64,000 nucleotides of DNA from an uncultured Candidatus Saccharibacteria bacterium (GTDB lineage Bacteria > Patescibacteriota > Saccharimonadia > CAILAD01 > JADZBC01): the NCBI GenBank assembly GCA_964600985.1, contig CAZRJR010000002.1, positions 104,867-168,866 on the forward strand. The letters run 5' to 3'. Of the stretch, positions 3,499 through 61,610 are shown one piece after another. Below the pieces are notes generated by a model. That model searched no databases. It saw only the letters and a list, made by a program, of their open reading frames with translations, and was not told the DNA's origin. A program made the position numbers and the translations under genes. The number at the start of each line of letters is the position of its first letter. Position 1 is the stretch's first letter.

Positions 3499-4059
3499 AT
3501 GCTAGAGCGAGCAAACATACAGCGCGTAATTATAGTACATGGCTGGGCTGATGATCCTACTCAGGGCTGGATGGGTTGGCTTACGCGCGAATTACGTGCC
3601 CAGGGCATAGAAGTAGTTGCTCCTGCTATGCCCGAGCCTAAAAAGCCAAACATAGAGGATTGGTTAGCGGAATTGGAGCGTGTGGCTGGTAGGCTCGATG
3701 CGCAAACAGCGTTGGTAGGCCATAGTTTGGGGGCCTATGTAGTGCTCCGTTACATGAGTAAATATGTGCTGGGTGAAAGCTTGGGCAAACTTATATTGGT
3801 AGCTGGCTTTGCTGGTCACGAGCGGGCCGAGCAGGGCAAGCGTGCTTTGCCAGAGGTAGACTTTGGTGCCATCAAAGCTAAAGTAGGGCGTATATATAGC
3901 GTGTATTCGGACAACGATGAAATTATTCCACCAGCCTGGTCGCGTGAGCTGGGTACGCTCCTTGGGGCGGAGAATGTGGTGGATCCAGGTAAAGGTCACT
4001 TTGCCGGTTTGCATGGCTGTGACACTCTGCCAAGCGTATTTGACCTTATTGTGGCTTGA
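3499..4059 (+). CDS. Alpha/beta serine hydrolase of the YdeN/RBBP9-like family
   Basis: It has an IIVHGW N-terminus, a GHSLG nucleophile elbow and a size of about 186 aa. Confidence 0.6.
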   Translation: MLERANIQRVIIVHGWADDPTQGWMGWLTRELRAQGIEVVAPAMPEPKKPNIEDWLAELERVAGRLDAQTALVGHSLGAYVVLRYMSKYVLGESLGKLILVAGFAGHERAEQGKRALPEVDFGAIKAKVGRIYSVYSDNDEIIPPAWSRELGTLLGAENVVDPGKGHFAGLHGCDTLPSVFDLIVA

Positions 4060-4597: not shown

Positions 4598-6352
4598 ATG
4601 GACGAAGTGGCAGAGATCAAGCAGAAGTTGGATATTGTAGACGTGATTGGCGGTTACATACAGCTCAAACCAGCCGGCCGCAACCTAAAGGCGCTTTCGC
4701 CATTCCACGCCGAAAAAACCCCGAGCTTCATGGTGAGCCCCGACAAGGGAATATGGCATGACTTCTCGACCGATGAAGGTGGCGATATATTTACCTTCGT
4801 GATGCGTATAGAGGGTGTGAGCTTTCCCGAAGCACTCGAGATACTAGCTAAGCGCGCCGGAGTAACACTTAAACCGCGCGGCAAGGCCAGCCACGGCCCA
4901 GCTAAAGGTAAGCTATTCGAGATTATGGAGTTGGCGGTAAAGTACTATCATGTATCTCTATCGCGCAACCCCGAGGCGCTGAATTATTTGCGTGAAGCTC
5001 GGGGCTTAAGCGCACAGACAATCAAAGACTTTAGCCTCGGCTATGCGCCACAAAGCTGGGATGCGCTCACGGGGTTCTTGCGTAAAAAGAACTTTAGTTA
5101 TGAGCAGATGGTGCAAGCAGGCGTGGCTGCACAAAAGCAAGCTAGTAGGAGCGCTTACGACCTTTTTCGGGCGCGTGTGTTGTTTCCAATATATGACAAT
5201 CAAGCCCGCCCAGTCGGCTTTAGTGGCCGGGTACTACCGGGCGACGAGTCGGGTGCTAAATACATAAACACTCCTCAGACAGCCATTTACAATAAGAGCA
5301 CAGCGATTTATGGTCTCACGCAGGCGAAAGAGGCTATTCGCGAGCACGACGAAGTGGTGATTGTGGAAGGGAATATGGATGTGGTGGCGCTGCACAACGC
5401 TGGGTTTGCGCAAGTAGTGGCTTGTAGTGGCACAGCGCTTACTAGTGAACAGCTAAAAGTGTTGTCTCGCCTAACTAAGAATATTAAAATCTGCTTTGAT
5501 CAGGACGCCGCGGGAGTAAAAGCCGCTCAGCGTGCAATCGAGTTGGCCCAGGGAATCGATATTAAGCTTGAGGTGGTTACGTTCGAGGGTGCTAAAGACC
5601 CTGATGAGCTTATTAGTAAAGACAAGGCTGCGTGGCTGAGTGCCGTGTCGGGCGCGTGCTACGCAGTAGACTACTTGTTTGACTATGCCAAAGCGAGCTT
5701 TGGTACAGCGTCGGCTAGCGCCAAGAAAGACATGAGTAGCTTTTTAATGCCAACCCTGCGTAAGCTCGAAGATACAGTGGAGCAAGACCACTATATAAAG
5801 CGTTTAAGCGAAGAGCTAGGTGTGAGCGAAGATTCGGTGCGACGTAAGGTGAATAGTGAGGATGCGCCCGCACCGGAACCTAGGCCAACTCAGTCAGAGC
5901 AAGCAGAGGCGTCAAATCAGCACCCCGCTCGACAGCTAACCAAAATTGAACAGGCCGAGCAGAACCTACTTAAGCTCATGTTGGCTTACCCGCAGGCTCG
6001 CGTGGCTTTGGGTGATGTAGTATTGGAATCAGTTAGTACAGAACACCGGCCATACTTTGCAGCCTTGAAGACTCACCCTAATTCAAAGCTAGAAACTATT
6101 GCAAAACACTTGCATGCTCATGAAAATGATGTTAAAATTCTTGCGTTAAAGGGTGAAGAAGAATACTCCGGACTGACGGAGCACGACATTGGGCTCGAAG
6201 CCTACACCCAAGTGCATAGATTGCAAAAACTAAATCGAGAATTGAATAAGCGACGGTTAGCAAAGCAGATTGCCGAGGCTGAAGCCGCTGGAGACCGAGA
6301 GGGCGTTAAAAGCCTTTTGGCAGATTATCAGGCACTACTAAACGAGGAGTAA
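4598..6352 (+). CDS. dnaG: DNA primase
   Basis: It has the CHC2 zinc finger (CPFHAEKTPSF), the Toprim motif EGNMDVVAL and a C-terminal helicase-interaction domain. An alternative GTG start lies at 4580. Confidence 0.92.
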   Translation: MDEVAEIKQKLDIVDVIGGYIQLKPAGRNLKALSPFHAEKTPSFMVSPDKGIWHDFSTDEGGDIFTFVMRIEGVSFPEALEILAKRAGVTLKPRGKASHGPAKGKLFEIMELAVKYYHVSLSRNPEALNYLREARGLSAQTIKDFSLGYAPQSWDALTGFLRKKNFSYEQMVQAGVAAQKQASRSAYDLFRARVLFPIYDNQARPVGFSGRVLPGDESGAKYINTPQTAIYNKSTAIYGLTQAKEAIREHDEVVIVEGNMDVVALHNAGFAQVVACSGTALTSEQLKVLSRLTKNIKICFDQDAAGVKAAQRAIELAQGIDIKLEVVTFEGAKDPDELISKDKAAWLSAVSGACYAVDYLFDYAKASFGTASASAKKDMSSFLMPTLRKLEDTVEQDHYIKRLSEELGVSEDSVRRKVNSEDAPAPEPRPTQSEQAEASNQHPARQLTKIEQAEQNLLKLMLAYPQARVALGDVVLESVSTEHRPYFAALKTHPNSKLETIAKHLHAHENDVKILALKGEEEYSGLTEHDIGLEAYTQVHRLQKLNRELNKRRLAKQIAEAEAAGDREGVKSLLADYQALLNEE

Positions 6353-22232: not shown

Positions 22233-24302
22233 ATGAGTAACGAACTGACATCAAGACCGCTTAGAGCCGAAGACATCGGTATGCCTGAGCGTTCACAATC
22301 TAAAACAGCTTCGGCGCGCGAGTCCCTTACTCGTCGGCCCGGGGTATCTTCGAATGCTTCCGCCACTGCAGCGGCTAAGCCGGCTGGCAATAGCCAGAGT
22401 AGTAATCGCGGAAGTAGCGGTAATGGCAATGGCAATCGTCAACGTGGTGGCCGACCAGGCCAGGGCGGTGGCAATCGTGGCAATGGCGGCCGAATGGGTG
22501 GAGGTCGCCCAGGTGGTCCACGCCGTGGGCGAGACAGCAAAGCCAACTACGTAACTGGTAGCTTCAACCAAAACAGCAATGGGCCCAAGGTAAGCCGGGC
22601 TCAAACGTCCAAGGCCGATATGGGTAAGCTCAAGATTATCCCACTTGGTGGCTTGGGCGAAATTGGCAAAAACGTAATGGCGCTCGAGTATGAAGACGAC
22701 ATTATTGTGCTAGACCTTGGTTTTGCCTTCCCAGGCGACGATCAGCCGGGCATTGACCTGATTGTGCCAGACGTAACGTACCTCGAGGAGCGCAAGCACA
22801 AAATCCGTGGGCACTTTATAACCCACGCCCACGAGGACCACGTGGGTGGCGTGCCGTTCTTGCTACCCAAACTACCAGCCCCAATTTATGGCGCTAAGTT
22901 TAGCATTAAGTTTATAGAGCGCAAGCTCGAGGAATACAAACTGCCGTTCAAGCCAGACTTGCGTATTGTTGATCAAGACACCGGCGAGCGCATTCAGGCG
23001 GGTGTGTTTAGTGTAGAATTTATTCGCATTACTCACTCTATACCCGATGCTTGTGCACTAGCTATTCGTACACCACTTGGTACGATCATAGATACCGGTG
23101 ACTGGCGCTTCGAGGAAAACCCAATTGATGGCAAGCCGTCGAACAAAGAACGACTCAAGCAGCTGGGGGACGAGGGCGTGCTTATGCTCATGAGTGATAG
23201 TACCAACTGTGAGGTAGTGGGTAAATCACCGACCGAGCAGGGAATTGTAGAGACTCTGGATGAGATTATGGTGCGTAATTACAACAAGCGAACTATCATC
23301 GCTTCGTTTGGCTCGCAGGTAACGCGTATGCAGATTGTGGTCGACGCTACAGTAAAGGCTAAACGTAAGTTAGTAGTACTCGGTCGTAGCATGGTCAATA
23401 ACCTAGAGCTTGCTATGAAGCTAGGCTATATTAAGGTTCCGCCTGGCACCTTGGTAAAAGGCCAAGAGATGAACAAGTATCAGGATGGTGAGATTGCTAT
23501 TCTTACCACTGGCTCCCAGGGTGAAGAATTCTCAGCTCTGCAGCGCATGGGCCGAGGTGAACACCGCGATGTAAAGCTTAAGGAAAACGATGTAGTAATT
23601 CTAAGCTCATCGATCATCCCTGGCAACGAAGAGTCGGTTTGGGGCATGGTAGACAATCTATTCCGCTGGGGTGCATATGTGTATCAGTCCAGCACTCGCG
23701 ACTTCGATAACTTAGGGATTATGCATACCACGGGGCATGCCTGGACCGAAGAGATCGAAGAAATGATTGATCTTGTACGACCCAAGTACTACCTGCCAAT
23801 CCACGGTGAACTCCACCACTTAGTACACAACGCTGAAATTGGTAAGCGCAAAGGCTACGACGACGACCATGTGTTTGTAATCGAAAACGGCCAAACCCTA
23901 GTCGCCGACAAAGAGGGGATCAAAAAGGGACCAATTGTACAAAATGGTATTGTGTTAATCGACGGAAATGGCATTGGCGACGTACAGGCAGTAGTACTTA
24001 ACGACCGTAAGGCCATGGGCTCTGATGGTATTTTTACTGCCATTGCTACCGTTGACCGCAAGACTGGCCGCCTCACTACTAGCCCGGACATCATAAGCCG
24101 TGGCTTCGTGTACATGAAGGACAATGAGGAGCTGATCAATAAGTCGCGCCAAATCGTGAAGAACATTTTTGACGGCCGCGACCGATCGACTCCACCAAGC
24201 TCGCTCATAGTCAAGACTCGCATGCGCGACGAGTTGTCGAACTACCTCTACAAGGTGACTAAGCGCAACCCGATTGTGGTGCCAGTAGTGATCGAGGTTT
24301 AG
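22233..24302 (+). CDS. rnj: Ribonuclease J (beta-CASP metallo-beta-lactamase) with an N-terminal Gly/Arg-rich extension
   Basis: It has the HAHEDHVGG motif, a beta-CASP region and about 100 aa of N-terminal RGG/GNG low complexity. Confidence 0.88.
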   Translation: MSNELTSRPLRAEDIGMPERSQSKTASARESLTRRPGVSSNASATAAAKPAGNSQSSNRGSSGNGNGNRQRGGRPGQGGGNRGNGGRMGGGRPGGPRRGRDSKANYVTGSFNQNSNGPKVSRAQTSKADMGKLKIIPLGGLGEIGKNVMALEYEDDIIVLDLGFAFPGDDQPGIDLIVPDVTYLEERKHKIRGHFITHAHEDHVGGVPFLLPKLPAPIYGAKFSIKFIERKLEEYKLPFKPDLRIVDQDTGERIQAGVFSVEFIRITHSIPDACALAIRTPLGTIIDTGDWRFEENPIDGKPSNKERLKQLGDEGVLMLMSDSTNCEVVGKSPTEQGIVETLDEIMVRNYNKRTIIASFGSQVTRMQIVVDATVKAKRKLVVLGRSMVNNLELAMKLGYIKVPPGTLVKGQEMNKYQDGEIAILTTGSQGEEFSALQRMGRGEHRDVKLKENDVVILSSSIIPGNEESVWGMVDNLFRWGAYVYQSSTRDFDNLGIMHTTGHAWTEEIEEMIDLVRPKYYLPIHGELHHLVHNAEIGKRKGYDDDHVFVIENGQTLVADKEGIKKGPIVQNGIVLIDGNGIGDVQAVVLNDRKAMGSDGIFTAIATVDRKTGRLTTSPDIISRGFVYMKDNEELINKSRQIVKNIFDGRDRSTPPSSLIVKTRMRDELSNYLYKVTKRNPIVVPVVIEV

Positions 24303-24303
24303 T

Positions 24304-24558
24304 GTGAATCTGGAGGGTGCACTCGGTCTTGTAGCGACCATGATTGTTATAGTGGGTAACGCGCCACAGGCGATTAAGGTGTGGCGTACACGCCAAACTC
24401 GAGATGTATCATTGGGTGGCTATCTATTGATCTCGCTTGCATGTATCGCGTGGGGAGCATATGCAATTCTTCGCGGCGATGCGTTCCTGCTTATGGCAAA
24501 CATGATTATTCTTTGTCTGGCTGGATCCGTAGTGATAGCTAAGTTGAAGTACAAGTAG
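24304..24558 (+). CDS. SemiSWEET / PQ-loop small sugar transporter
   Basis: It encodes 84 aa with 3 TM helices and a PQ motif (GNAPQAIKVW). A GTG start lies immediately after the rnj stop. Confidence 0.6.
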   Translation: MNLEGALGLVATMIVIVGNAPQAIKVWRTRQTRDVSLGGYLLISLACIAWGAYAILRGDAFLLMANMIILCLAGSVVIAKLKYK

Positions 24559-24561
24559 ATA

Positions 24562-24590
24562 TTGACAAATATGCATAATTACTATATAAT
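24562..24590 (+). promoter_or_regulatory. Near-consensus sigma-70 promoter driving a 140-nt structured leader
   Basis: TTGACA-17 nt-TATAAT. Confidence 0.55.
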
Positions 24591-24645
24591 GGTACGACTT
24601 TAGCTGAGCTAAGGTACCTTGCAAGGATAAAATAGTCAAGGTTTA

Positions 24646-24693
24646 GTAATGTGCTCTCCAGCTGTAAGAGCGTGCATTACTGGACCTTGTTTT
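24646..24693 (+). terminator. Leader hairpin plus U-tract, a candidate attenuator upstream of the small high-GC gene
   Basis: AGTAATGTGCTCT ccagctgtaa GAGCGTGCATTACT followed by GGACCTTGTTTTAA. Confidence 0.35.
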
Positions 24694-24747
24694 AACTCAA
24701 GGGATCAGTGAGTTCGCCCCAAAACCCAAAGACCCAGGAGGTCAAAA

Positions 24748-25029
24748 GTGGCGAAAGATAAGCTGCCGGTTCGTGTGCGCATTCCCGGCACGGACTACTT
24801 CGTCTGGCGTGAGGCCGAGGGCGAGAAGCAGTGTACGCACTGCCGAGTAACTCGGAGTTGCCTCTTTTCCTACGACGACAGCTGCAAGCCGTTCTGCAAC
24901 ATCCGCCACTGGATGATGCATGTGGTTTGCCAGTACGGAGTCGGCGGGAGTCGCATGGAGGACGAGACGGGCAAGCGGCCGCGTCGCCCCAAGCGTCGCC
25001 ACCTGACCGTGGCTGCCCACGCAAGCTGA
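24748..25029 (+). CDS. Small Cys-rich protein in a high-GC patch
   Basis: AGGAGG-N6-GTG. The 93-aa product has 6 Cys (CTHC...C...C...C...C). The gene is followed by a UUCG-tetraloop hairpin. Confidence 0.4.
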   Translation: MAKDKLPVRVRIPGTDYFVWREAEGEKQCTHCRVTRSCLFSYDDSCKPFCNIRHWMMHVVCQYGVGGSRMEDETGKRPRRPKRRHLTVAAHAS

Positions 25030-25032
25030 TCG

Positions 25033-25054
25033 GTGGGGGCCTTCGGGCCCCCAC
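25033..25054 (+). terminator. 9-bp GC hairpin with a TTCG loop and no U-tract
   Basis: GTGGGGGCC ttcg GGCCCCCAC. Confidence 0.4.
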
Positions 25055-25129
25055 ACAGCTCACTCAACCTTACATTCTATCCTTGCTTCTTCCCAAGTTC
25101 TCGAACCATCCGAGGCCTTAGGAGGAATG

Positions 25130-26878
25130 TTACAACTTTACTTTGCCGCTGGCGGACTGTAAGTCAAACAGCTTTTTGTATAGTCCAGTTTGGTTAATAA
25201 GCTCAGCGTGATTACCGCGCTCGGCTACCTTGCCTCCTTTGAGTACTAAGATCTCATCTGCATGCATAATTGTGCTCAGGCGGTGAGCAATTACGAGAGC
25301 ACTACGGCCAGCCATAAGCTTCTTGAGGCCATCTTGCACGAGGCGCTCAGACTCACTATCGAGAGCGCTGGTAGCTTCGTCTAGGATGATAAGCTGCGGA
25401 TCTTTGAGTATGGCGCGCGCAATTGCTATACGCTGCTTTTGCCCGCCAGAGAGCTTTACGCCACGCTCGCCCACGAGCGTTCTGTACTTTTTGGGTAGCT
25501 CGCTAATAAACTCGTCGGCGTGCGCTTGCTTGGCAGCGTGGATTATATTTTCCTTGCTGGCGCGCGCATTGGCCATGGCAAGGTTTTCTTGCACCGTAGC
25601 GTTAAACAGTGCCACGTCTTGCATGACCATGCCGATGTGTTGGCGAATGCTATCGGCCGTAAAGTCGCTTATGTCTTGACCATTAATGAGTATTTCGCCC
25701 TCAGTTGGCTCATAGAATCGTAACAACAGCTTGGTAATGGTAGATTTGCCAGTTCCGCTGGGGCCGACTAGTGCAACTGTCTTGTCGCCTTCGATCTTAA
25801 AGCTAATGTTATGTATTGCGCCCTTCTTACTGTCGGGGTAGGCGAAGCTCACGTTTTTAAACTCAATACTTTCGAGCGAGACAAGCGGCAAGGCATCGGC
25901 GCGGTCTACGATGGTTGGCTTAGTCTCTAAAATCTCAATCAACAGTCCTGCCGACACATCTGCTTCAGTTGTACTTTGCAGTATCCGCGCTATTGGATTG
26001 ATTGAGTTGGTAAGGTTTGACGCAAAATATGCAAATACAAAGATATCGGCAGGGGACAACTTACCATATATAGCCGAGAAGGTAGCGATTGCAATGGCAA
26101 CTACTCGATAGAAGTCCCCAAGCGCATCACGTGCTGTGTTGTAACGGCGCTGAATCTGGTTTGTGGTGTTGGAAAGGGTTAATACCTCTTCGTGATATTT
26201 CTGGTATCTGGTCTTAATGCGTGTTTCAGCTGAGAGAGATTTGACCATGGCTAGGTTAGAGATCGTCTCTGCCAATAGTCCTGAAGACTTGCTGCCAGCT
26301 TCTTGCCAATCCTTTATAAGTGGCTTCGTTAGCCTTGCCTTTCTTACTACCAAGAAAACCATGAGTGGGCCGAATAATAGAAGAAAGGTAAGTCCGGCCA
26401 CGACACTGCTCTTAAATATAACAATAAGTGCTATAACCATGAACGCGATGTTCGAAATAGTGTAAATAGCATTAAACAGCCAGTTGCGGAACTGAGAAAC
26501 TCCTTCGTTGATTTTCTGCATAATTTTGCCAGCACCTTGGTGCTCTGTGTGCGACGGCGAAAGTTCTAAGACTAAGTCCATTACTCGCGTCCTGACTTTA
26601 TATGCAACATCAATTCCAAGCCGATCTTGATATTTCTCCTGGAAGAATGTTGCGATATTACCTATTAATCCTGCAACGACCAGTACGAGTAGCCATACTA
26701 TTACGTCTGGGGTAACTTGTCCTTTGCTAGCTACTTTACTAATAATTGTGATGATTTGCTTAACCACGAGCGGCGTTAGCGCCTGCATAGCAGCAACAAG
26801 TGTACTTACAATCACAACAACCACGAGCTTCCAGAGGTAGTTATCTAGGTATTTATAGAGTTTAAATAAGTTCTTCAC
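25130..26878 (-). CDS. ABC transporter, fused permease/ATPase (MsbA-like exporter)
   Basis: It has 6 TM helices, Walker A GPSGTGKST, the signature LSGGQKQRIAIARAIL and Walker B LILDEATSALD. It has a GTG start. Confidence 0.9.
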   Translation of the reverse strand: MKNLFKLYKYLDNYLWKLVVVVIVSTLVAAMQALTPLVVKQIITIISKVASKGQVTPDVIVWLLVLVVAGLIGNIATFFQEKYQDRLGIDVAYKVRTRVMDLVLELSPSHTEHQGAGKIMQKINEGVSQFRNWLFNAIYTISNIAFMVIALIVIFKSSVVAGLTFLLLFGPLMVFLVVRKARLTKPLIKDWQEAGSKSSGLLAETISNLAMVKSLSAETRIKTRYQKYHEEVLTLSNTTNQIQRRYNTARDALGDFYRVVAIAIATFSAIYGKLSPADIFVFAYFASNLTNSINPIARILQSTTEADVSAGLLIEILETKPTIVDRADALPLVSLESIEFKNVSFAYPDSKKGAIHNISFKIEGDKTVALVGPSGTGKSTITKLLLRFYEPTEGEILINGQDISDFTADSIRQHIGMVMQDVALFNATVQENLAMANARASKENIIHAAKQAHADEFISELPKKYRTLVGERGVKLSGGQKQRIAIARAILKDPQLIILDEATSALDSESERLVQDGLKKLMAGRSALVIAHRLSTIMHADEILVLKGGKVAERGNHAELINQTGLYKKLFDLQSASGKVKL

Positions 26879-59712: not shown

Positions 59713-59871
59713 TGGATTCTCCTTCTACTCGGTGGTTATGCCACCATTGGCTAGTCTTCGGAACTTACATATAATACCACTAAAACTTTACAAAAGCAAT
59801 AGAAAGTGATAGTATACACCCACCTTGAAGCCACCCATCTATCCTTAGCCTCACGGCGGGAAGGACATGCA

Positions 59872-60654
59872 ATGAAGAAGCACGCGTTTATCAGTTCGCT
59901 GGACTCCTTCATCGCGAGCGGTCAGCTCACGATGAAGGGCCAGCAGCCTCTCGCCGCTCACTACATCAACTACTTCCGCAAGACGGACATCGCCGCCGAC
60001 CGGAAGTACGACTTCTGGGACATGGAGGCCTACCTGCCGCAGCTGATGCTCGACGGGTTCATGGATCTCCTCAGCTCGGAGGACCACGCCACTGCGCACA
60101 TCCGTGAGCTGCTCGAGATGCAGACCGGCCTCGTGCTCGGAGATCCCTCCAGGATCGGGGCCATCCCGTCAACGGACCAGGTCCTCTGGGTCCAGTCCAT
60201 CGACGGGATGCTGCGAGGAGTAGGCGTCCACGAAGCCACCTGCAGCAAGGTGGAGATGCTCTTCATGGCCGAAGTCCGGATGGTCGAGCTGGCCTTCCGT
60301 AGGTTCGTCCAAGACGTCTTCTCCTCCGGCCTCTTCGAGGTCATCAACGGGGGGATCACGTCGGGCATGAGCGGGACCTTTCAGGACCGGGGGGACACGC
60401 CCACAACCCTGCGGACCTTCGTGACGGCGGGCCGGCTCATGTTCACCTTCGCCTGCGGTGTGGGCAGCCACGAGGAGTCGATCACCTTCGTCGGTACCGA
60501 GGACGATCCGCTCCTTCTCGGGGCAGGTCTGCAGTCGGTCCAGACCGATCTCGCGACGGCGCTGAAGATGATCGATACGGTCAGCACCTGCTGGCCGACG
60601 GACCCCGAGGCGCAGGCCGCGTGCTTCACCCCTGGCGGTGTCGCTGTCGGCTGA
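59872..60654 (+). CDS. Hypothetical protein encoded by a high-GC (about 62%) gene
   Basis: The product is MKKHAFISSLDSF... and GGGAAGGA lies upstream. Codon usage has high GC3, unlike the backbone. No family was recognised. Confidence 0.5.
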   Translation: MKKHAFISSLDSFIASGQLTMKGQQPLAAHYINYFRKTDIAADRKYDFWDMEAYLPQLMLDGFMDLLSSEDHATAHIRELLEMQTGLVLGDPSRIGAIPSTDQVLWVQSIDGMLRGVGVHEATCSKVEMLFMAEVRMVELAFRRFVQDVFSSGLFEVINGGITSGMSGTFQDRGDTPTTLRTFVTAGRLMFTFACGVGSHEESITFVGTEDDPLLLGAGLQSVQTDLATALKMIDTVSTCWPTDPEAQAACFTPGGVAVG

Positions 60655-60838: not shown

Positions 60839-60914
60839 TGGTACCCTGGGAGGGAATCGAACCCCCGACGCTCTCCTTAGGACGGAGACGCTCTATCCAC
60901 TGAGCTACCAGGGC
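60839..60914 (-). tRNA. tRNA-Arg (anticodon CCT), with CCA encoded
   Basis: The minus-strand sequence is GCCCTGG TA GCTC AGTGGATA GAGC G TCTCC GTCCTAA GGAGA GCGTC GGGGG TTCGATT CCCTC CCAGGGT A CCA. The cloverleaf is folded by eye, with a G1-U72 wobble. Confidence 0.75.
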
Positions 60915-61055: not shown

Positions 61056-61610
61056 ATGCAGTGTCCAAGCTGTGATGCTTCGATTCTAGAGGTCGAAGCA
61101 TTGAATCGGTGTCCAGTCTGTGGTTATCAGTTGGGCGATCCAGATGTGGTGTTCCCGCCCTACTTGGGCGATGGGCAGGTCGGCGAGCCGCCCGACGAGG
61201 ATGACATCTACTTGGAGGAGGTTCCATCGCCCGAGGAGCTCGTAGAGGCTTCGGACCGACACCCGGCCAAGGGCAAGAGTACCAAGGCCAAGAAGCCGCT
61301 CAAGCCTCCGAACTTCTTCCAGTTCCGAGTTCATACGGGTGGCAAGGAAGGCTCCTACTGGGTGCGCAGCAGTGCCAAAACGCCGGCTAGGGATGCCCTT
61401 AGGCCTTGGCTGAAGGGCCAGGGGGTGGTTCTAACCGACCAACTGGGGCACCCAATCAGCAGAATTGCTGACAGCTTGGAGCGGGGCAAAGCCTACCGAA
61501 AGGCAATGCCACTGACCGGCGGTCCACTCGAGGTCATTCCTCAGGGCGCCAGGGGGTACTTGGATGCCTATGGTGATCATCGTGACGATCCCGTGTGGGT
61601 ACAGCTGTAG
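61056..61610 (+). CDS. Hypothetical protein with an N-terminal zinc ribbon, encoded by a high-GC gene
   Basis: It has CPSC...CPVCGYQ and a basic middle region. An AGGAG SD is present. Confidence 0.5.
   Translation: MQCPSCDASILEVEALNRCPVCGYQLGDPDVVFPPYLGDGQVGEPPDEDDIYLEEVPSPEELVEASDRHPAKGKSTKAKKPLKPPNFFQFRVHTGGKEGSYWVRSSAKTPARDALRPWLKGQGVVLTDQLGHPISRIADSLERGKAYRKAMPLTGGPLEVIPQGARGYLDAYGDHRDDPVWVQL

What the first reader, a model, noticed from the sequence alone, without database searches (positions are those of the whole stretch)
24562..25056. Self-contained high-GC cassette: consensus promoter, leader attenuator-like hairpin, small Cys-rich ORF and UUCG hairpin
Immediately after the SemiSWEET gene there is a near-perfect TTGACA-17-TATAAT promoter. 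It drives a 140-nt leader with a strong hairpin plus U-tract (a candidate attenuator or riboswitch terminator). An AGGAGG-GTG ORF of 93 aa with 6 Cys follows, then a 9-bp GC hairpin with a UUCG tetraloop and no U-tract. That style of terminator is typical of Actinobacteria. The cassette is at about 62% GC against a backbone of about 49%. It looks like a regulated, horizontally acquired small gene, possibly a metal/zinc-binding protein or the remnant of a toxin/antitoxin module.
Basis: partly seen in the sequence, partly recalled or inferred. Interest (0 to 1): 0.55.

Follow-up and report, generated by a model that had tools for sequence, protein, structure and literature searches.

The report
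Small zinc-finger gene with self-pairing mRNA
This is a real, strongly promoted gene for a small, probably zinc-binding protein found only in some Saccharibacteria; it has been inherited in place rather than imported, and its messenger RNA is unusually folded, with its front and back ends apparently base-paired.

Summary
There is a perfect TTGACA-17-TATAAT promoter, the only one in the 64 kb window. There is a leader of about 151 nt with a 21-bp hairpin plus UUUU, an AGGAGG-GTG ORF of 93 aa with 6 Cys, and a 9-bp GC hairpin with a UUCG loop.

The ORF is a real gene. It is intact in all relatives found, about 20 protein clusters, wherever context is known in Saccharibacteria. dN/dS is 0.09-0.27 within allele types.

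It was not recently acquired. It sits in conserved synteny (rnj, sometimes SemiSWEET, ORF, ABC exporter, ftsK). Its high GC (GC3 0.69-0.88 against about 0.5) is kept in every ortholog, although synonymous sites are saturated.

The protein matches no known family. It keeps a C-x2-C...C-x3-C/H motif, and a moderate-confidence model suggests a treble-clef zinc finger.

The new point is the RNA. It has a 5'-terminal hairpin, a covarying terminator-like hairpin, and a stop codon inside the base of the GC hairpin. A 9-14 bp pairing joins the leader (24621-24629) to the 3' UTR (25078-25086).

Alleles of the ORF are swapped between near-identical flanks. There is no riboswitch, toxin-antitoxin or HGT evidence. 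The function of the protein and the role of the leader hairpin remain inferred.

The parts
24562..24590 (+). Sigma-70-type promoter TTGACA-17-TATAAT. Transcription probably starts near 24597.
   Evidence: 12/12 match. Unique in the window, 0.04 expected by chance. Conserved in position in 11 orthologous loci.
24597..24615 (+). P1: an 8-bp hairpin with a triloop at the very 5' end of the transcript.
   Evidence: -6.7 kcal/mol, z = -2.95. 100% of cells paired in 12 sequences. L005 keeps the hairpin through changes at three pairs, one of them compensatory on both sides.
24621..24629 (+). LR5': GCAAGGAUA, the 5' arm of the long-range leader/3'-UTR helix.
   Evidence: Complementary to 25078-25086. 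The helix is in the MFE structure with probability 0.91-1.00 in 10/10 full-length orthologous transcripts. Three haplotypes have matched changes on both arms.
24637..24693 (+). P2: a 21-bp imperfect hairpin (24637-24689) followed by UUUU (24690-24693). It looks like an intrinsic terminator.
   Evidence: -27.5 kcal/mol, z = -7.0. 94% of cells paired, with 4 pairs changed on both sides. Most of it is deleted in L002.
24699..24708 (+). Box 3 (CAAGGGAUCA): a second copy of the AAGGAU-like core and a possible alternative partner of the 3' arm.
   Evidence: The GG and flanking bases are invariant. 6-7 bp complementarity to the 3' UTR in most orthologs, but not in a fixed register.
24713..24718 (+). 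UUCGCC, predicted to pair with GGCGAA (24750-24755), which would sequester the start-codon region.
   Evidence: In the MFE structure of the window and most orthologs. 84% of cells paired and no compensatory change, so inconclusive.
24731..24743 (+). Small hairpin GACC-CAGGA-GGUC that presents the Shine-Dalgarno AGGAGG (24736-24741) partly in its loop.
   Evidence: Invariant in 12 sequences, so there is no covariation information. Weak on its own: -4.7 kcal/mol, z = -0.6.
24748..25029 (+). Protein-coding gene of 93 aa with a GTG start. The N-terminal ~65 aa form a conserved C-x2-C...FSYDD...FCN-x2-(C/H)-W domain. The C-terminal tail is basic and variable.
   Evidence: Intact in all orthologs. 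dN/dS is 0.09-0.27 within allele types; window vs L081 differ at codon positions 1/2/3 by 5/4/25. GC3 is 0.78.
25024..25060 (+). P3: a 9-bp G+C stem with a UUCG loop (25033-25054), inside an outer 5-bp helix AGCUG/CAGCU that contains the stop codon UGA (25027-25029).
   Evidence: -25.9 kcal/mol, z = -5.0. The inner stem is 100% paired with 2 compensatory pairs; the outer helix is 90% paired. Unique in the window.
25078..25086 (+). LR3': UAUCCUUGC, the 3' arm of the long-range helix.
25099..25115 (+). P4: a short hairpin next to the stop codon of the convergent ABC gene. In relatives it is followed by GUUUUAGG, the likely true terminator. In the window the U-tract has decayed to GCCUUAGG.
   Evidence: 97% of cells paired, with 3 of 5 pairs changed on both sides. 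Sequences. Weak in the window: -4.1 kcal/mol.

Best explanation
The interval is a single-gene transcription unit of a Saccharibacteria (TM7) genome. A consensus promoter drives an mRNA of about 520 nt that encodes a lineage-restricted small protein of 86-125 aa.

The conserved N-terminal ~65 residues carry a C-x2-C...C-x3-C/H site. This most likely binds zinc in a treble-clef-like fold. A variable basic tail follows.

The mRNA itself is the unusual part. It starts with a hairpin at its 5' end. It then carries a long terminator-like hairpin in the leader, and its ribosome-binding site sits in a small hairpin. The coding region is kept GC3-rich and well folded. The stop codon lies in the base of a G+C hairpin. 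Finally, 9-14 nt of the leader pair with the 3' UTR, closing the whole message into a loop.

My reading is that these structures set the lifetime and translation of the message by shielding both ends and the leader from ribonucleases (RNase J is encoded just upstream and PNPase nearby). This is how the 14-bp 5'/3'-UTR pairing of Bacillus subtilis hbs mRNA works. The leader hairpin would act as a constitutive partial terminator or processing site rather than a ligand-controlled switch.

Shown here:
- the gene is coding;
- synteny is conserved;
- the helices are conserved, partly with covariation;
- alleles are exchanged between conserved flanks.

Inferred:
- zinc binding;
- the effect of the structures on RNA stability or translation;
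- the transcription start and end points.

The confidence of 0.6 is for the whole statement. I put the shown parts at about 0.9, a functional long-range helix at about 0.7, and the stability/translation mechanism at about 0.45.
For: Organism and synteny:
- All related loci are Saccharibacteria/Patescibacteria MAGs.
- The order rnj-(SemiSWEET)-ORF-(ABC exporter on the minus strand)-ftsK recurs.

Coding:
- Intact ORFs occur in about 20 clusters.
- dN/dS is 0.09-0.27 within allele types, with third-position changes dominating.

Not foreign:
- GC3 is 0.69-0.88 in every ortholog. Flanking DNA is 46-51% GC and other window genes have GC3 of about 0.32-0.60.
- dS is already 0.3-1.8.
- Window ORFs whose opening residues look like ribosomal proteins and EF-P (my reading, not scanned against families) are not GC3-rich.

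RNA:
- 95.4% of 778 cells are paired, against 36-44% when partners are slid.
- 11 pairs change on both sides, against 3.9 +/- 1.2 in shuffles; 0/500 shuffles reach this.

Long-range helix:
- It is found at homologous positions in 11 of 11 orthologs with a comparable 3' UTR.
- It has probability 0.91-1.00 in independent folds of ten 440-585-nt transcripts that carry four ORF allele types.
- An unrelated sequence pair does the same job in distant orthologs L087 and L089, with probability about 1.

Coding-region structure:
- Native ORFs fold better than synonymous-codon shuffles in 8/8 orthologs, z = -0.2 to -2.7.

Protein:
- V10, E22, C29, C32, Y42, D44, F49 and W55 are invariant across all four allele types of the 16-sequence alignment. 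C50 is replaced by G in the D-type alleles, and position 54 is C or H throughout.
- AF2 on 18 sequences gives pLDDT 74.6, with a beta-hairpin after the C-x2-C and a helix starting at C50.

Precedent:
- A 14-bp 5'/3'-UTR pairing modulates RNase Y cleavage of hbs mRNA (PMC5737220).
- 5'/3'-UTR pairing also occurs in icaR (PMC3868564).
Against: - No expression data exist, so the start, the end and the half-life of the transcript are all inferred.
- Covariation in the long-range helix rests on only three haplotypes and is modest in the tool test. The score is 0.150 against 0.116 +/- 0.018, and 25/500 shuffles reach it. Its AAGGAU/AUCCUU core never varies.
- Three distant orthologs (L102, L103, L105) show no such pairing, and in L107 it is a minority structure with probability 0.2-0.35.
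- The structure tested was derived from the window sequence, and the 12 sequences are related.
- If the leader hairpin terminates efficiently, most transcripts would never contain the 3' arm.
- The protein model is of only moderate confidence, and no fold match is significant.
Confidence: 0.6

Rival explanations
1. The leader is a regulated transcription attenuator, either a riboswitch or a protein-dependent one. The hairpin at 24637-24689 plus UUUU stops most transcripts. A signal sensed by the conserved 5' sequence allows read-through into the ORF.
For: - The hairpin is very stable (-27.5 kcal/mol, z = -7.0), is conserved with 4 compensatory pairs, and is always followed by 3-4 U.
- Several relatives also have an upstream A-run that pairs with the U-run, as in classical terminators.
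- The 40 nt upstream of it are more conserved than the ORF.
- A weak 6-bp alternative pairing, ACUUUG with CAAGGU, appears in nascent-RNA folds of 4 of 9 orthologs.
Against: - No Rfam family matches at E <= 1.
- The putative sensor is only an 8-bp triloop hairpin plus about 21 nt.
- The alternative pairing is weak and is absent in 5 of 9 orthologs.
- The 20-codon uORF inside the hairpin is not conserved in frame or length.
- L002 has lost the hairpin and keeps an intact gene.
- Distant orthologs have leaders of about 45-50 nt without it.
- The U-tract is only 3-4 nt long.
Confidence: 0.25
2. The first ~97 nt (5' hairpin, single-stranded GCAAGGAUA seed, terminator hairpin) form an independent small RNA. 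The ORF is made only by read-through, so the locus has a dual function.
For: - The layout is the classical sRNA shape.
- This part is the best-conserved stretch of the locus, 75-97% identical against 59-88% for the ORF, one outlier pair aside.
- The single-stranded stretch has a perfect partner in the 3' UTR.
Against: - The only conserved complementary target found lies in cis on the same transcript.
- Nothing else in the 64 kb window matches the motifs.
- L002 lacks the terminator hairpin.
- There are no expression data.
Confidence: 0.15
3. The locus is a type I toxin-like module. A stable mRNA, locked by 5'-3' pairing, would encode a harmful small protein, as in hok-type systems (this is the first reader's toxin/antitoxin idea).
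For: - 5'-3' long-distance pairing, a partly sequestered Shine-Dalgarno and start codon, and a strong constitutive promoter.
- Alleles are hypervariable and swapped.
- These traits are typical of type I toxin mRNAs (established knowledge of hok/Sok and AapA1/IsoA1).
Against: - No conserved antisense promoter lies inside or next to the cassette. The only recurrent minus-strand site scores 8/12 and points away from it.
- The protein is hydrophilic, 93 aa long and has no transmembrane stretch.
- No PADLOC, Pfam or NCBIfam hit was found.
- Purifying selection and stable synteny fit a housekeeping or accessory gene equally well.
Confidence: 0.07
4. The cassette is foreign DNA recently acquired from a high-GC donor such as an actinobacterial host or its phage.
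For: - The ORF is 62.8% GC against 49.8% for the window.
- The G+C hairpin lacks a U-tract.
- ORF alleles differ sharply between genomes whose flanks are 92-97% identical.
Against: - The syntenic slot is the same in all loci.
- High GC3 is retained in every ortholog although dS is saturated.
- The family has only about 20 clusters, all of which (where context is known) lie in this Saccharibacteria context.
- No PHROG hit and no mobility genes nearby.
- The promoter and leader are AT-rich to average in composition.
- Exchange appears to occur among Saccharibacteria, not from outside.
Confidence: 0.05
5. The complementary 9-14-mers are DNA inverted repeats of an invertible or mobile segment, not an RNA helix.
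For: Inverted repeats flank the ORF and change together on both sides.
Against: - The segment has the same orientation in all 20 loci that carry this leader.
- No recombinase gene is nearby.
- Within the longest complementary run of each ortholog I count 7 G.U positions, which are A.C mismatches on the other strand. The same plus-strand bias is seen in P1 of L005.
Confidence: 0.03

Closest known systems
Bacillus subtilis hbs mRNA (5'/3'-UTR interaction that controls RNase Y and RNase J1 access; Braun, Durand & Condon 2017, PMC5737220)
   Same: - A monocistronic message for a small basic protein of about 92 aa.
- A strong Shine-Dalgarno sequence and a highly structured 5' UTR.
[quoted passage not shown]
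- Here RNase J is encoded just upstream and PNPase a few genes further upstream.
   Different: - The proteins are unrelated: HU versus an orphan Cys-rich protein.
- No cleavage sites or half-lives are known here.
- This leader also contains a 21-bp terminator-like hairpin.
- This coding region is kept GC3-rich.
Staphylococcus aureus icaR mRNA (3'-UTR/5'-UTR pairing; Ruiz de los Mozos et al. 2013, PMC3868564)
   Same: A 3'-UTR pyrimidine motif that resembles an anti-Shine-Dalgarno sequence (here AUCCUUG) pairs with a purine-rich, Shine-Dalgarno-like motif in the 5' UTR (here CAAGGAU).
   Different: In icaR the 3' UTR pairs with the functional Shine-Dalgarno sequence. Here it pairs with a Shine-Dalgarno-like box about 110 nt upstream of the real one, and the real one sits in its own small hairpin.
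Type I toxin mRNAs with fold-back (5'-3') inhibition, such as hok/Sok and AapA1/IsoA1
   Same: End-to-end pairing of a stable, strongly transcribed small-protein mRNA, with sequestered translation signals.
   Different: No antisense RNA gene was found. The protein is hydrophilic and Cys-rich rather than a membrane peptide.
FCS/TRASH-type treble-clef zinc fingers (YacG, YHS/TRASH domains, ribosomal protein eL24)
   Same: A C-x2-C knuckle, then a beta-hairpin, then an F-C-x-x-x-C/H motif at the start of a helix. YacG appears among the weak Foldseek matches (4tma_J, TM 0.46, E = 5).
   Different: - No Pfam, NCBIfam or PDB sequence match.
- The spacing is 17 residues, not 19-22.
- It has an extra N-terminal V-R-V-R-F-P-G-T strand and the FSYDD motif.
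- One allele type lacks the third Cys.

Membership tests
Riboswitch (any Rfam class) | Match to a curated covariance model | tested here: not met
   cmscan of 24200-25400 at E <= 1 returned only a chance mir-148 hit, 19 bits against a gathering score of 53.
Riboswitch (any Rfam class) | A conserved aptamer upstream of an expression platform, with mutually exclusive terminator and antiterminator | tested here: not met
   Upstream of the hairpin there is only an 8-bp triloop hairpin plus about 21 nt. The alternative 6-bp pairing appears in 4 of 9 orthologs and is far weaker than the -27.5 kcal/mol hairpin.
Intrinsic terminator / attenuator | A stable stem-loop directly followed by a U-tract | tested here: met
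   An 18+3 bp stem followed by UUUU (UUUC or CUUU in two relatives), conserved in 11 of 12 orthologs. The U-tract is short (3-4 nt), and the consensus scan did not flag it; its 9-nt loop exceeds that scan's 3-8-nt limit.
Intrinsic terminator / attenuator | Termination actually occurs and is modulated | not testable with these tools
   This needs Term-seq or in vitro transcription.
mRNA with a functional 5'/3'-UTR interaction (hbs or icaR type) | [quoted passage not shown] | tested here: met
   8-14 bp (9-14 in all but L096) at homologous positions in 11/11 orthologs with a comparable 3' UTR. Probability 0.91-1.00 in full-length folds. An unrelated pair plays the same role in L087 and L089.
mRNA with a functional 5'/3'-UTR interaction (hbs or icaR type) | Compensatory changes that keep the pairing | tested here: inconclusive
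   5 of 16 pairs change on both sides, but from only three haplotypes. The covariation score is 0.150 against 0.116 +/- 0.018 and 25/500 shuffles reach it; slid controls give 0.03-0.10.
mRNA with a functional 5'/3'-UTR interaction (hbs or icaR type) | The pairing alters RNase cleavage, stability or translation | not testable with these tools
   This needs mutagenesis and half-life measurements.
TRASH / zf-FCS / YacG zinc fingers | Profile match to Pfam YHS, zf-FCS, YacG or Ribosomal_L24e | tested here: not met
   None of these families matches any of 12 members at E <= 10. No NCBIfam hit. The PDB profile search gave only a chance hit at E = 0.7.
TRASH / zf-FCS / YacG zinc fingers | C-x2-C-x19-22-C-x3-C ligand spacing (as recalled for TRASH) and a treble-clef fold | tested here: inconclusive
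   The spacing is C-x2-C-x17-C-x3-C/H. The AF2 topology is compatible at pLDDT 74.6. All Foldseek matches have E > 0.4; YacG scores TM 0.46 at E = 5.
Type I toxin-antitoxin | A cis- or divergently encoded antisense RNA with its own promoter | tested here: not met
   No conserved minus-strand promoter overlaps the transcript in 10 orthologs.
Type I toxin-antitoxin | A small toxic, usually hydrophobic, peptide | tested here: not met
   The protein is 93 aa, with 18 K+R and 10 D+E and no hydrophobic span. Toxicity was not tested.
Horizontally acquired island | Atypical composition together with patchy, non-syntenic distribution or mobility genes | tested here: not met
   Composition is atypical only in the ORF. 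Position is syntenic in all loci. GC3 is high in all orthologs. No mobility genes are adjacent.

The most novel reading that the evidence does not exclude
The locus is a swappable cassette. The conserved, structured leader and the conserved stop-codon hairpin act as homology arms. Highly divergent alleles of a small zinc-finger protein are exchanged between these arms among Saccharibacteria. The protein would be a conflict factor (host-symbiont, anti-phage or toxin-like), and its mRNA would be kept locked by 5'-3' pairing, as type I toxin messages are.
Probability: 0.12. Interest if true: 0.7.

Novelty: new variant of a known kind. Interest (0 to 1): 0.42.

Why it matters
Saccharibacteria and other CPR bacteria have tiny genomes. 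Very little is known about how they control gene expression after transcription, and few of them can be grown in culture.

This locus offers a compact, testable case with four features:
- an undescribed small Cys-rich protein family;
- a coding region held at high GC3, apparently for RNA folding rather than because of foreign origin;
- allele replacement between conserved RNA-structured flanks.

It also serves as a caution. A GC-rich gene in a lower-GC genome need not be horizontally acquired.

Tried and rejected
1. Known structured RNA (RNase P, tmRNA, SRP, 6S, riboswitch): Rfam at E <= 1 and ARAGORN found nothing in the interval.
2. ORF as a chance product of GC-rich non-coding RNA. Six overlapping ORFs lie in the region, but codon-position and dN/dS analysis shows the + frame is coding.
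3. Protein family searches: Pfam, NCBIfam, PHROGs, PADLOC and PDB sequences gave no meaningful hit.
4. The one PDB hit, a Sac7d-derived nanofitin with a shared V-K-V-K-F...FSYDD-x-GK pattern, has E = 0.7, and native Sac7d/Sso7d did not appear. I treat it as chance.
6. P0013, P0015 and P0018 from the representative search are translated repeats, not relatives.
7. Two metagenome pattern scans for the leader returned nothing, although a JGI contig (L101) matches the pattern. That collection evidently does not hold these samples.
8. Leader-peptide attenuation: the uORF starting at 24649 is not conserved in frame or length.
9. A second long-range helix (24707-24714 with 25057-25064) exists only in the window and L004.
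10. The palindromes AAGGTACCTT and CCTTGCAAGG are specific to the window.
11. Co-evolution of the ORF with the neighbouring ABC exporter: their alleles do not co-segregate.
12. CsrA-type control through the five (A/C)AGG boxes: three of the five are base-paired, and I could not check whether the genome encodes CsrA, so I did not pursue it.
Full report
**1. The observation**

- The promoter is TTGACA (24562-24567), 17 nt, TATAAT (24585-24590). It matches 12 of 12 positions. It is the only exact match in the 64 kb window, where 0.04 are expected by chance.
- Transcription would start near 24597, giving a leader of about 151 nt.
- The leader hairpin spans 24637-24689 (18+3 bp, -27.5 kcal/mol, z = -7.0). 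UUUU follows at 24690-24693.
- AGGAGG (24736-24741) lies 6 nt before GTG at 24748.
- The ORF 24748-25029 encodes 93 aa with six Cys.
- The 9-bp G+C stem with a UUCG loop is at 25033-25054 and has no U-tract.
- The composition claim needs trimming. The ORF is 62.8% GC against 49.8% for the window. The promoter plus leader is 40.9%, and the whole interval is 55.4%.

**2. Where it sits**

- Upstream are RNase J (22233-24302) and an 84-aa SemiSWEET (24304-24558; Pfam PQ-loop and MtN3_slv).
- Downstream, on the other strand, is an ABC exporter (25130-26878). FtsK follows.
- A scan of species-representative genomes with the RNase J protein returned 80 loci, all from Saccharibacteria/Patescibacteria MAGs. 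The window is therefore a Saccharibacteria genome.

**3. The ORF is a real gene**

- DNA homologous to 24559-25129 lies directly after rnj in the five closest loci. Each holds an intact ORF with the same AGGAGG-N-GTG start and the same ...AGC-TGA end.
- Protein searches of 5.8 and 1.8 billion sequences found only about 20 clusters. Three extra hits were translated repeats.
- Within allele types, differences concentrate at third codon positions. Window vs L081 differ by 5/4/25 at positions 1/2/3. dN/dS is 0.09-0.27.
- The worry that the many overlapping ORFs in this GC-rich stretch signal non-coding RNA is therefore set aside.
- The ORF is not a fragment of a longer gene. The one longer call (P0008, 145 aa) starts at an AUG inside the leader hairpin and runs into the ORF.

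**4. Not horizontally acquired**

- Wherever context is available, the gene occupies the same slot: rnj, sometimes SemiSWEET, the ORF, sometimes the convergent ABC gene, then ftsK.
- GC3 of the ORF is 0.69-0.88 in all 14 orthologs examined, including distant ones. Flanking DNA is 46-51% GC.
- Other genes in the window have GC3 of about 0.32-0.60. That includes ORFs whose opening residues look like ribosomal proteins and EF-P; this is my reading, and I did not scan them against families.
- Synonymous divergence between orthologs is already 0.3-1.8. The high GC3 is therefore actively maintained and is not a fading foreign signature.
- Native ORFs fold more stably than versions with synonymous codons shuffled in 8 of 8 orthologs, z = -0.2 to -2.7. 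My inference is that the composition serves RNA folding or nuclease avoidance.

**5. The protein**

- The family shares an N-terminal domain of about 65 aa...P-V-x-V-R-x-P-G-T...R-E-x-E...C-x2-C...(L/R)-F-S-Y-D-D...F-C-N-x-x-(C/H)-W. A variable, often basic tail follows.
- Only C29, C32, C50 and C/H54 of the window's six Cys are conserved. One allele type has G in place of C50.
- No Pfam, NCBIfam, PHROG or PADLOC model matches, and neither does any PDB sequence.
- AlphaFold2 on 18 sequences gives pLDDT 74.6 for residues 1-67. The model has strands at 8-11, 18-28 and 35-41 and a helix at 52-63.
- The C-x2-C knuckle, the hairpin and the ligand-bearing first turn of the helix make up the treble-clef arrangement as I know it.
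- Foldseek finds nothing significant. Zinc fingers, including YacG, appear only among chance-level hits.
- Zinc binding is therefore a reasonable inference, not a result.

**6. The RNA**

I aligned the leader and 3' UTR of 12 orthologs and tested a structure written from the window sequence.
- 95.4% of cells pair, against 36-44% when partners are slid.
- 11 pairs change on both sides, against 3.9 +/- 1.2 in shuffles; 0/500 shuffles reach this.

Support by helix:
- P1 (24597-24615), a hairpin at the very 5' end: 100% paired, and kept in L005 through three changed pairs.
- P2 (24637-24689): 4 compensatory pairs.
- P3 (25033-25054): 2 compensatory pairs. It also has an outer helix, AGCUG/CAGCU (25024-25060), that encloses the stop codon.
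- P4 (25099-25115): 3 of 5 pairs compensatory. In relatives GUUUUAGG follows it, so it is the likely true terminator. In the window this U-run has decayed.
- The Shine-Dalgarno hairpin (24731-24743) never varies.
- The pairing of 24713-24718 with the start region shows no covariation. Both of these last two are uninformative.

Caveats: the structure was derived from one of the sequences, and the sequences are related.

**7. The long-range helix**

- GCAAGGAUA (24621-24629) is complementary to UAUCCUUGC (25078-25086), which lies beyond the UUCG hairpin.
- The same two positions are complementary in all 11 orthologs with a comparable 3' UTR, over 8-14 bp (9-14 in all but L096).
- There are three sequence versions: GCAAGGAUAGA/UCUAUCCUUGC, ACAAGGAUAUAGGA/UCCUAUGUCCUUGU and AAGGAUGCAUGCAG/UUGCAUGUAUCCUU.
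- In independent folds of ten full-length transcripts (440-585 nt, four ORF allele types), the helix is in the minimum-energy structure with probability 0.91-1.00.
- Distant orthologs with a short, unrelated leader pair their extreme 5' end, CUUCG(A/G)GA, with UC(U/C)CGAAG just after the stop codon. The probability is about 1 in L087 and L089 and 0.2-0.35 in L107.
- Three others (L102, L103, L105) show nothing comparable.
- The formal covariation test is only moderate. The score is 0.150 against 0.116 +/- 0.018, and 25/500 shuffles reach it. The core never varies, and only three haplotypes exist.
- Within the longest complementary run of each ortholog I count 7 G.U positions, from a search that allowed G.U but not A.C. 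One plus-strand A.C mismatch interrupts the window's helix. The orientation is the same in all 20 loci. Both points favour an RNA helix over DNA inverted repeats.

**8. What the leader hairpin does is open**

- It looks like an intrinsic terminator. However, the U-run is only 3-4 nt and no conserved antiterminator exists.
- No Rfam family matches, and the uORF inside it is not conserved.
- L002 has deleted most of it between two TCAGT repeats and keeps the gene.
- I rate a ligand-sensing switch as unlikely. A constitutive partial terminator or a processing or stability element is more likely. A separate sRNA of about 97 nt remains possible.

**9. Allele exchange**

- L094, L001 and L003 are 92-96% identical in the last 600 nt of rnj and 95-97% identical in the promoter plus leader.
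- Their ORFs are only 68-72% identical and belong to three different allele types.
- The conserved leader, and the conserved AGCUGA plus G+C hairpin, bracket the variable part.
- The neighbouring ABC gene is also mosaic, at 55-98% aa identity where RNase J is 95-97%. Its alleles do not track those of the ORF.
- This points to recombination among Saccharibacteria at this spot, not to import from outside.

**10. Comparison with known systems**

- The closest functional parallel is B. subtilis hbs mRNA. There, a 14-bp 5'/3'-UTR pairing modulates RNase Y cleavage of a structured leader (PMC5737220). S. aureus icaR is a second case (PMC3868564).
- Type I toxin mRNAs share the end-to-end lock. Here, however, no antisense promoter is conserved and the protein is hydrophilic.
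- The locus meets the sequence-level criteria of a 5'/3'-UTR interaction. It fails those of riboswitches, TRASH/YacG families, type I toxin-antitoxin systems and acquired islands.

**11. Verdict**

- It is wrong on horizontal origin and is unsupported on the toxin/antitoxin idea.
- The interesting residue is an undescribed small-protein family whose mRNA architecture, GC3 bias and allele swapping are conserved. It is worth an experiment, but it is not a new kind of system.

Noticed in passing
window 24304-24558; L087, L089, L102 versus L001-L005, L081, L094-L101: The SemiSWEET gene between rnj and the small ORF is present in the window and in distant relatives. It is absent in the closest relatives, where the promoter follows rnj directly. 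This is a presence/absence polymorphism.
   Followed up: partly
window 25130-26878 (-): The convergent ABC exporter is mosaic between species. Its aa identity to the window is 98% in L004, 74% in L001 and L002, and 55% in L081 and L005, while RNase J stays at 95-97%. Its alleles do not co-segregate with those of the small ORF.
   Followed up: partly
window 59806-60654 (+), 61056-61610 (+), tRNA-Arg(CCT) 60839-60914 (-): Two further GC3-rich ORFs (GC3 0.84 and 0.67) flank a tRNA-Arg gene. Neither has a Pfam match above cut-off. The second begins with C-x2-C...C-x2-C. This may be a small acquired island, or more genes of the GC3-rich kind.
   Followed up: partly
window 22233-22600: RNase J carries an N-terminal extension of about 100-130 aa that is rich in Gly, Arg, Asn and Ser and of low complexity. 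Most relatives align only from residue 101-147 onward.
   Followed up: no
window 24649-24711; protein P0008: An AUG inside the leader hairpin opens a 20-codon uORF (MCSPAVRACITGPCFNSRDQ). Its frame and length are not conserved. One database entry (P0008, 145 aa) is a gene call that starts at this AUG and runs into the main ORF.
   Followed up: yes
L002 2540-2600: This relative lacks about 64 nt of the leader: the 3' half of the long hairpin, the U-run and box 3. The deletion apparently occurred between two TCAGT repeats. The ORF and the long-range complementarity are kept.
   Followed up: partly
window 24598-24625 (-) and orthologs: A weak minus-strand promoter-like site, TTGCAA-16-TAAAGT (8/12), recurs in 9 of 10 orthologs. 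It is built from the conserved leader sequence and points away from the cassette.
   Followed up: yes
L087 3457-3470 / 3830-3845; L089 4809-4820 / 5225-5235; L107: Distant orthologs have leaders of only about 45-50 nt. The extreme 5' end of each leader is complementary to the 3' UTR 11-14 nt after the stop codon. The same 3' element can instead extend the terminator stem, which suggests alternative structures.
   Followed up: partly
L003 6304-6373: In this relative the sequence after the ORF differs. The hairpin loop is CAAGC instead of UUCG, the downstream DNA is A-rich, and no ABC gene follows before the contig ends.
   Followed up: no
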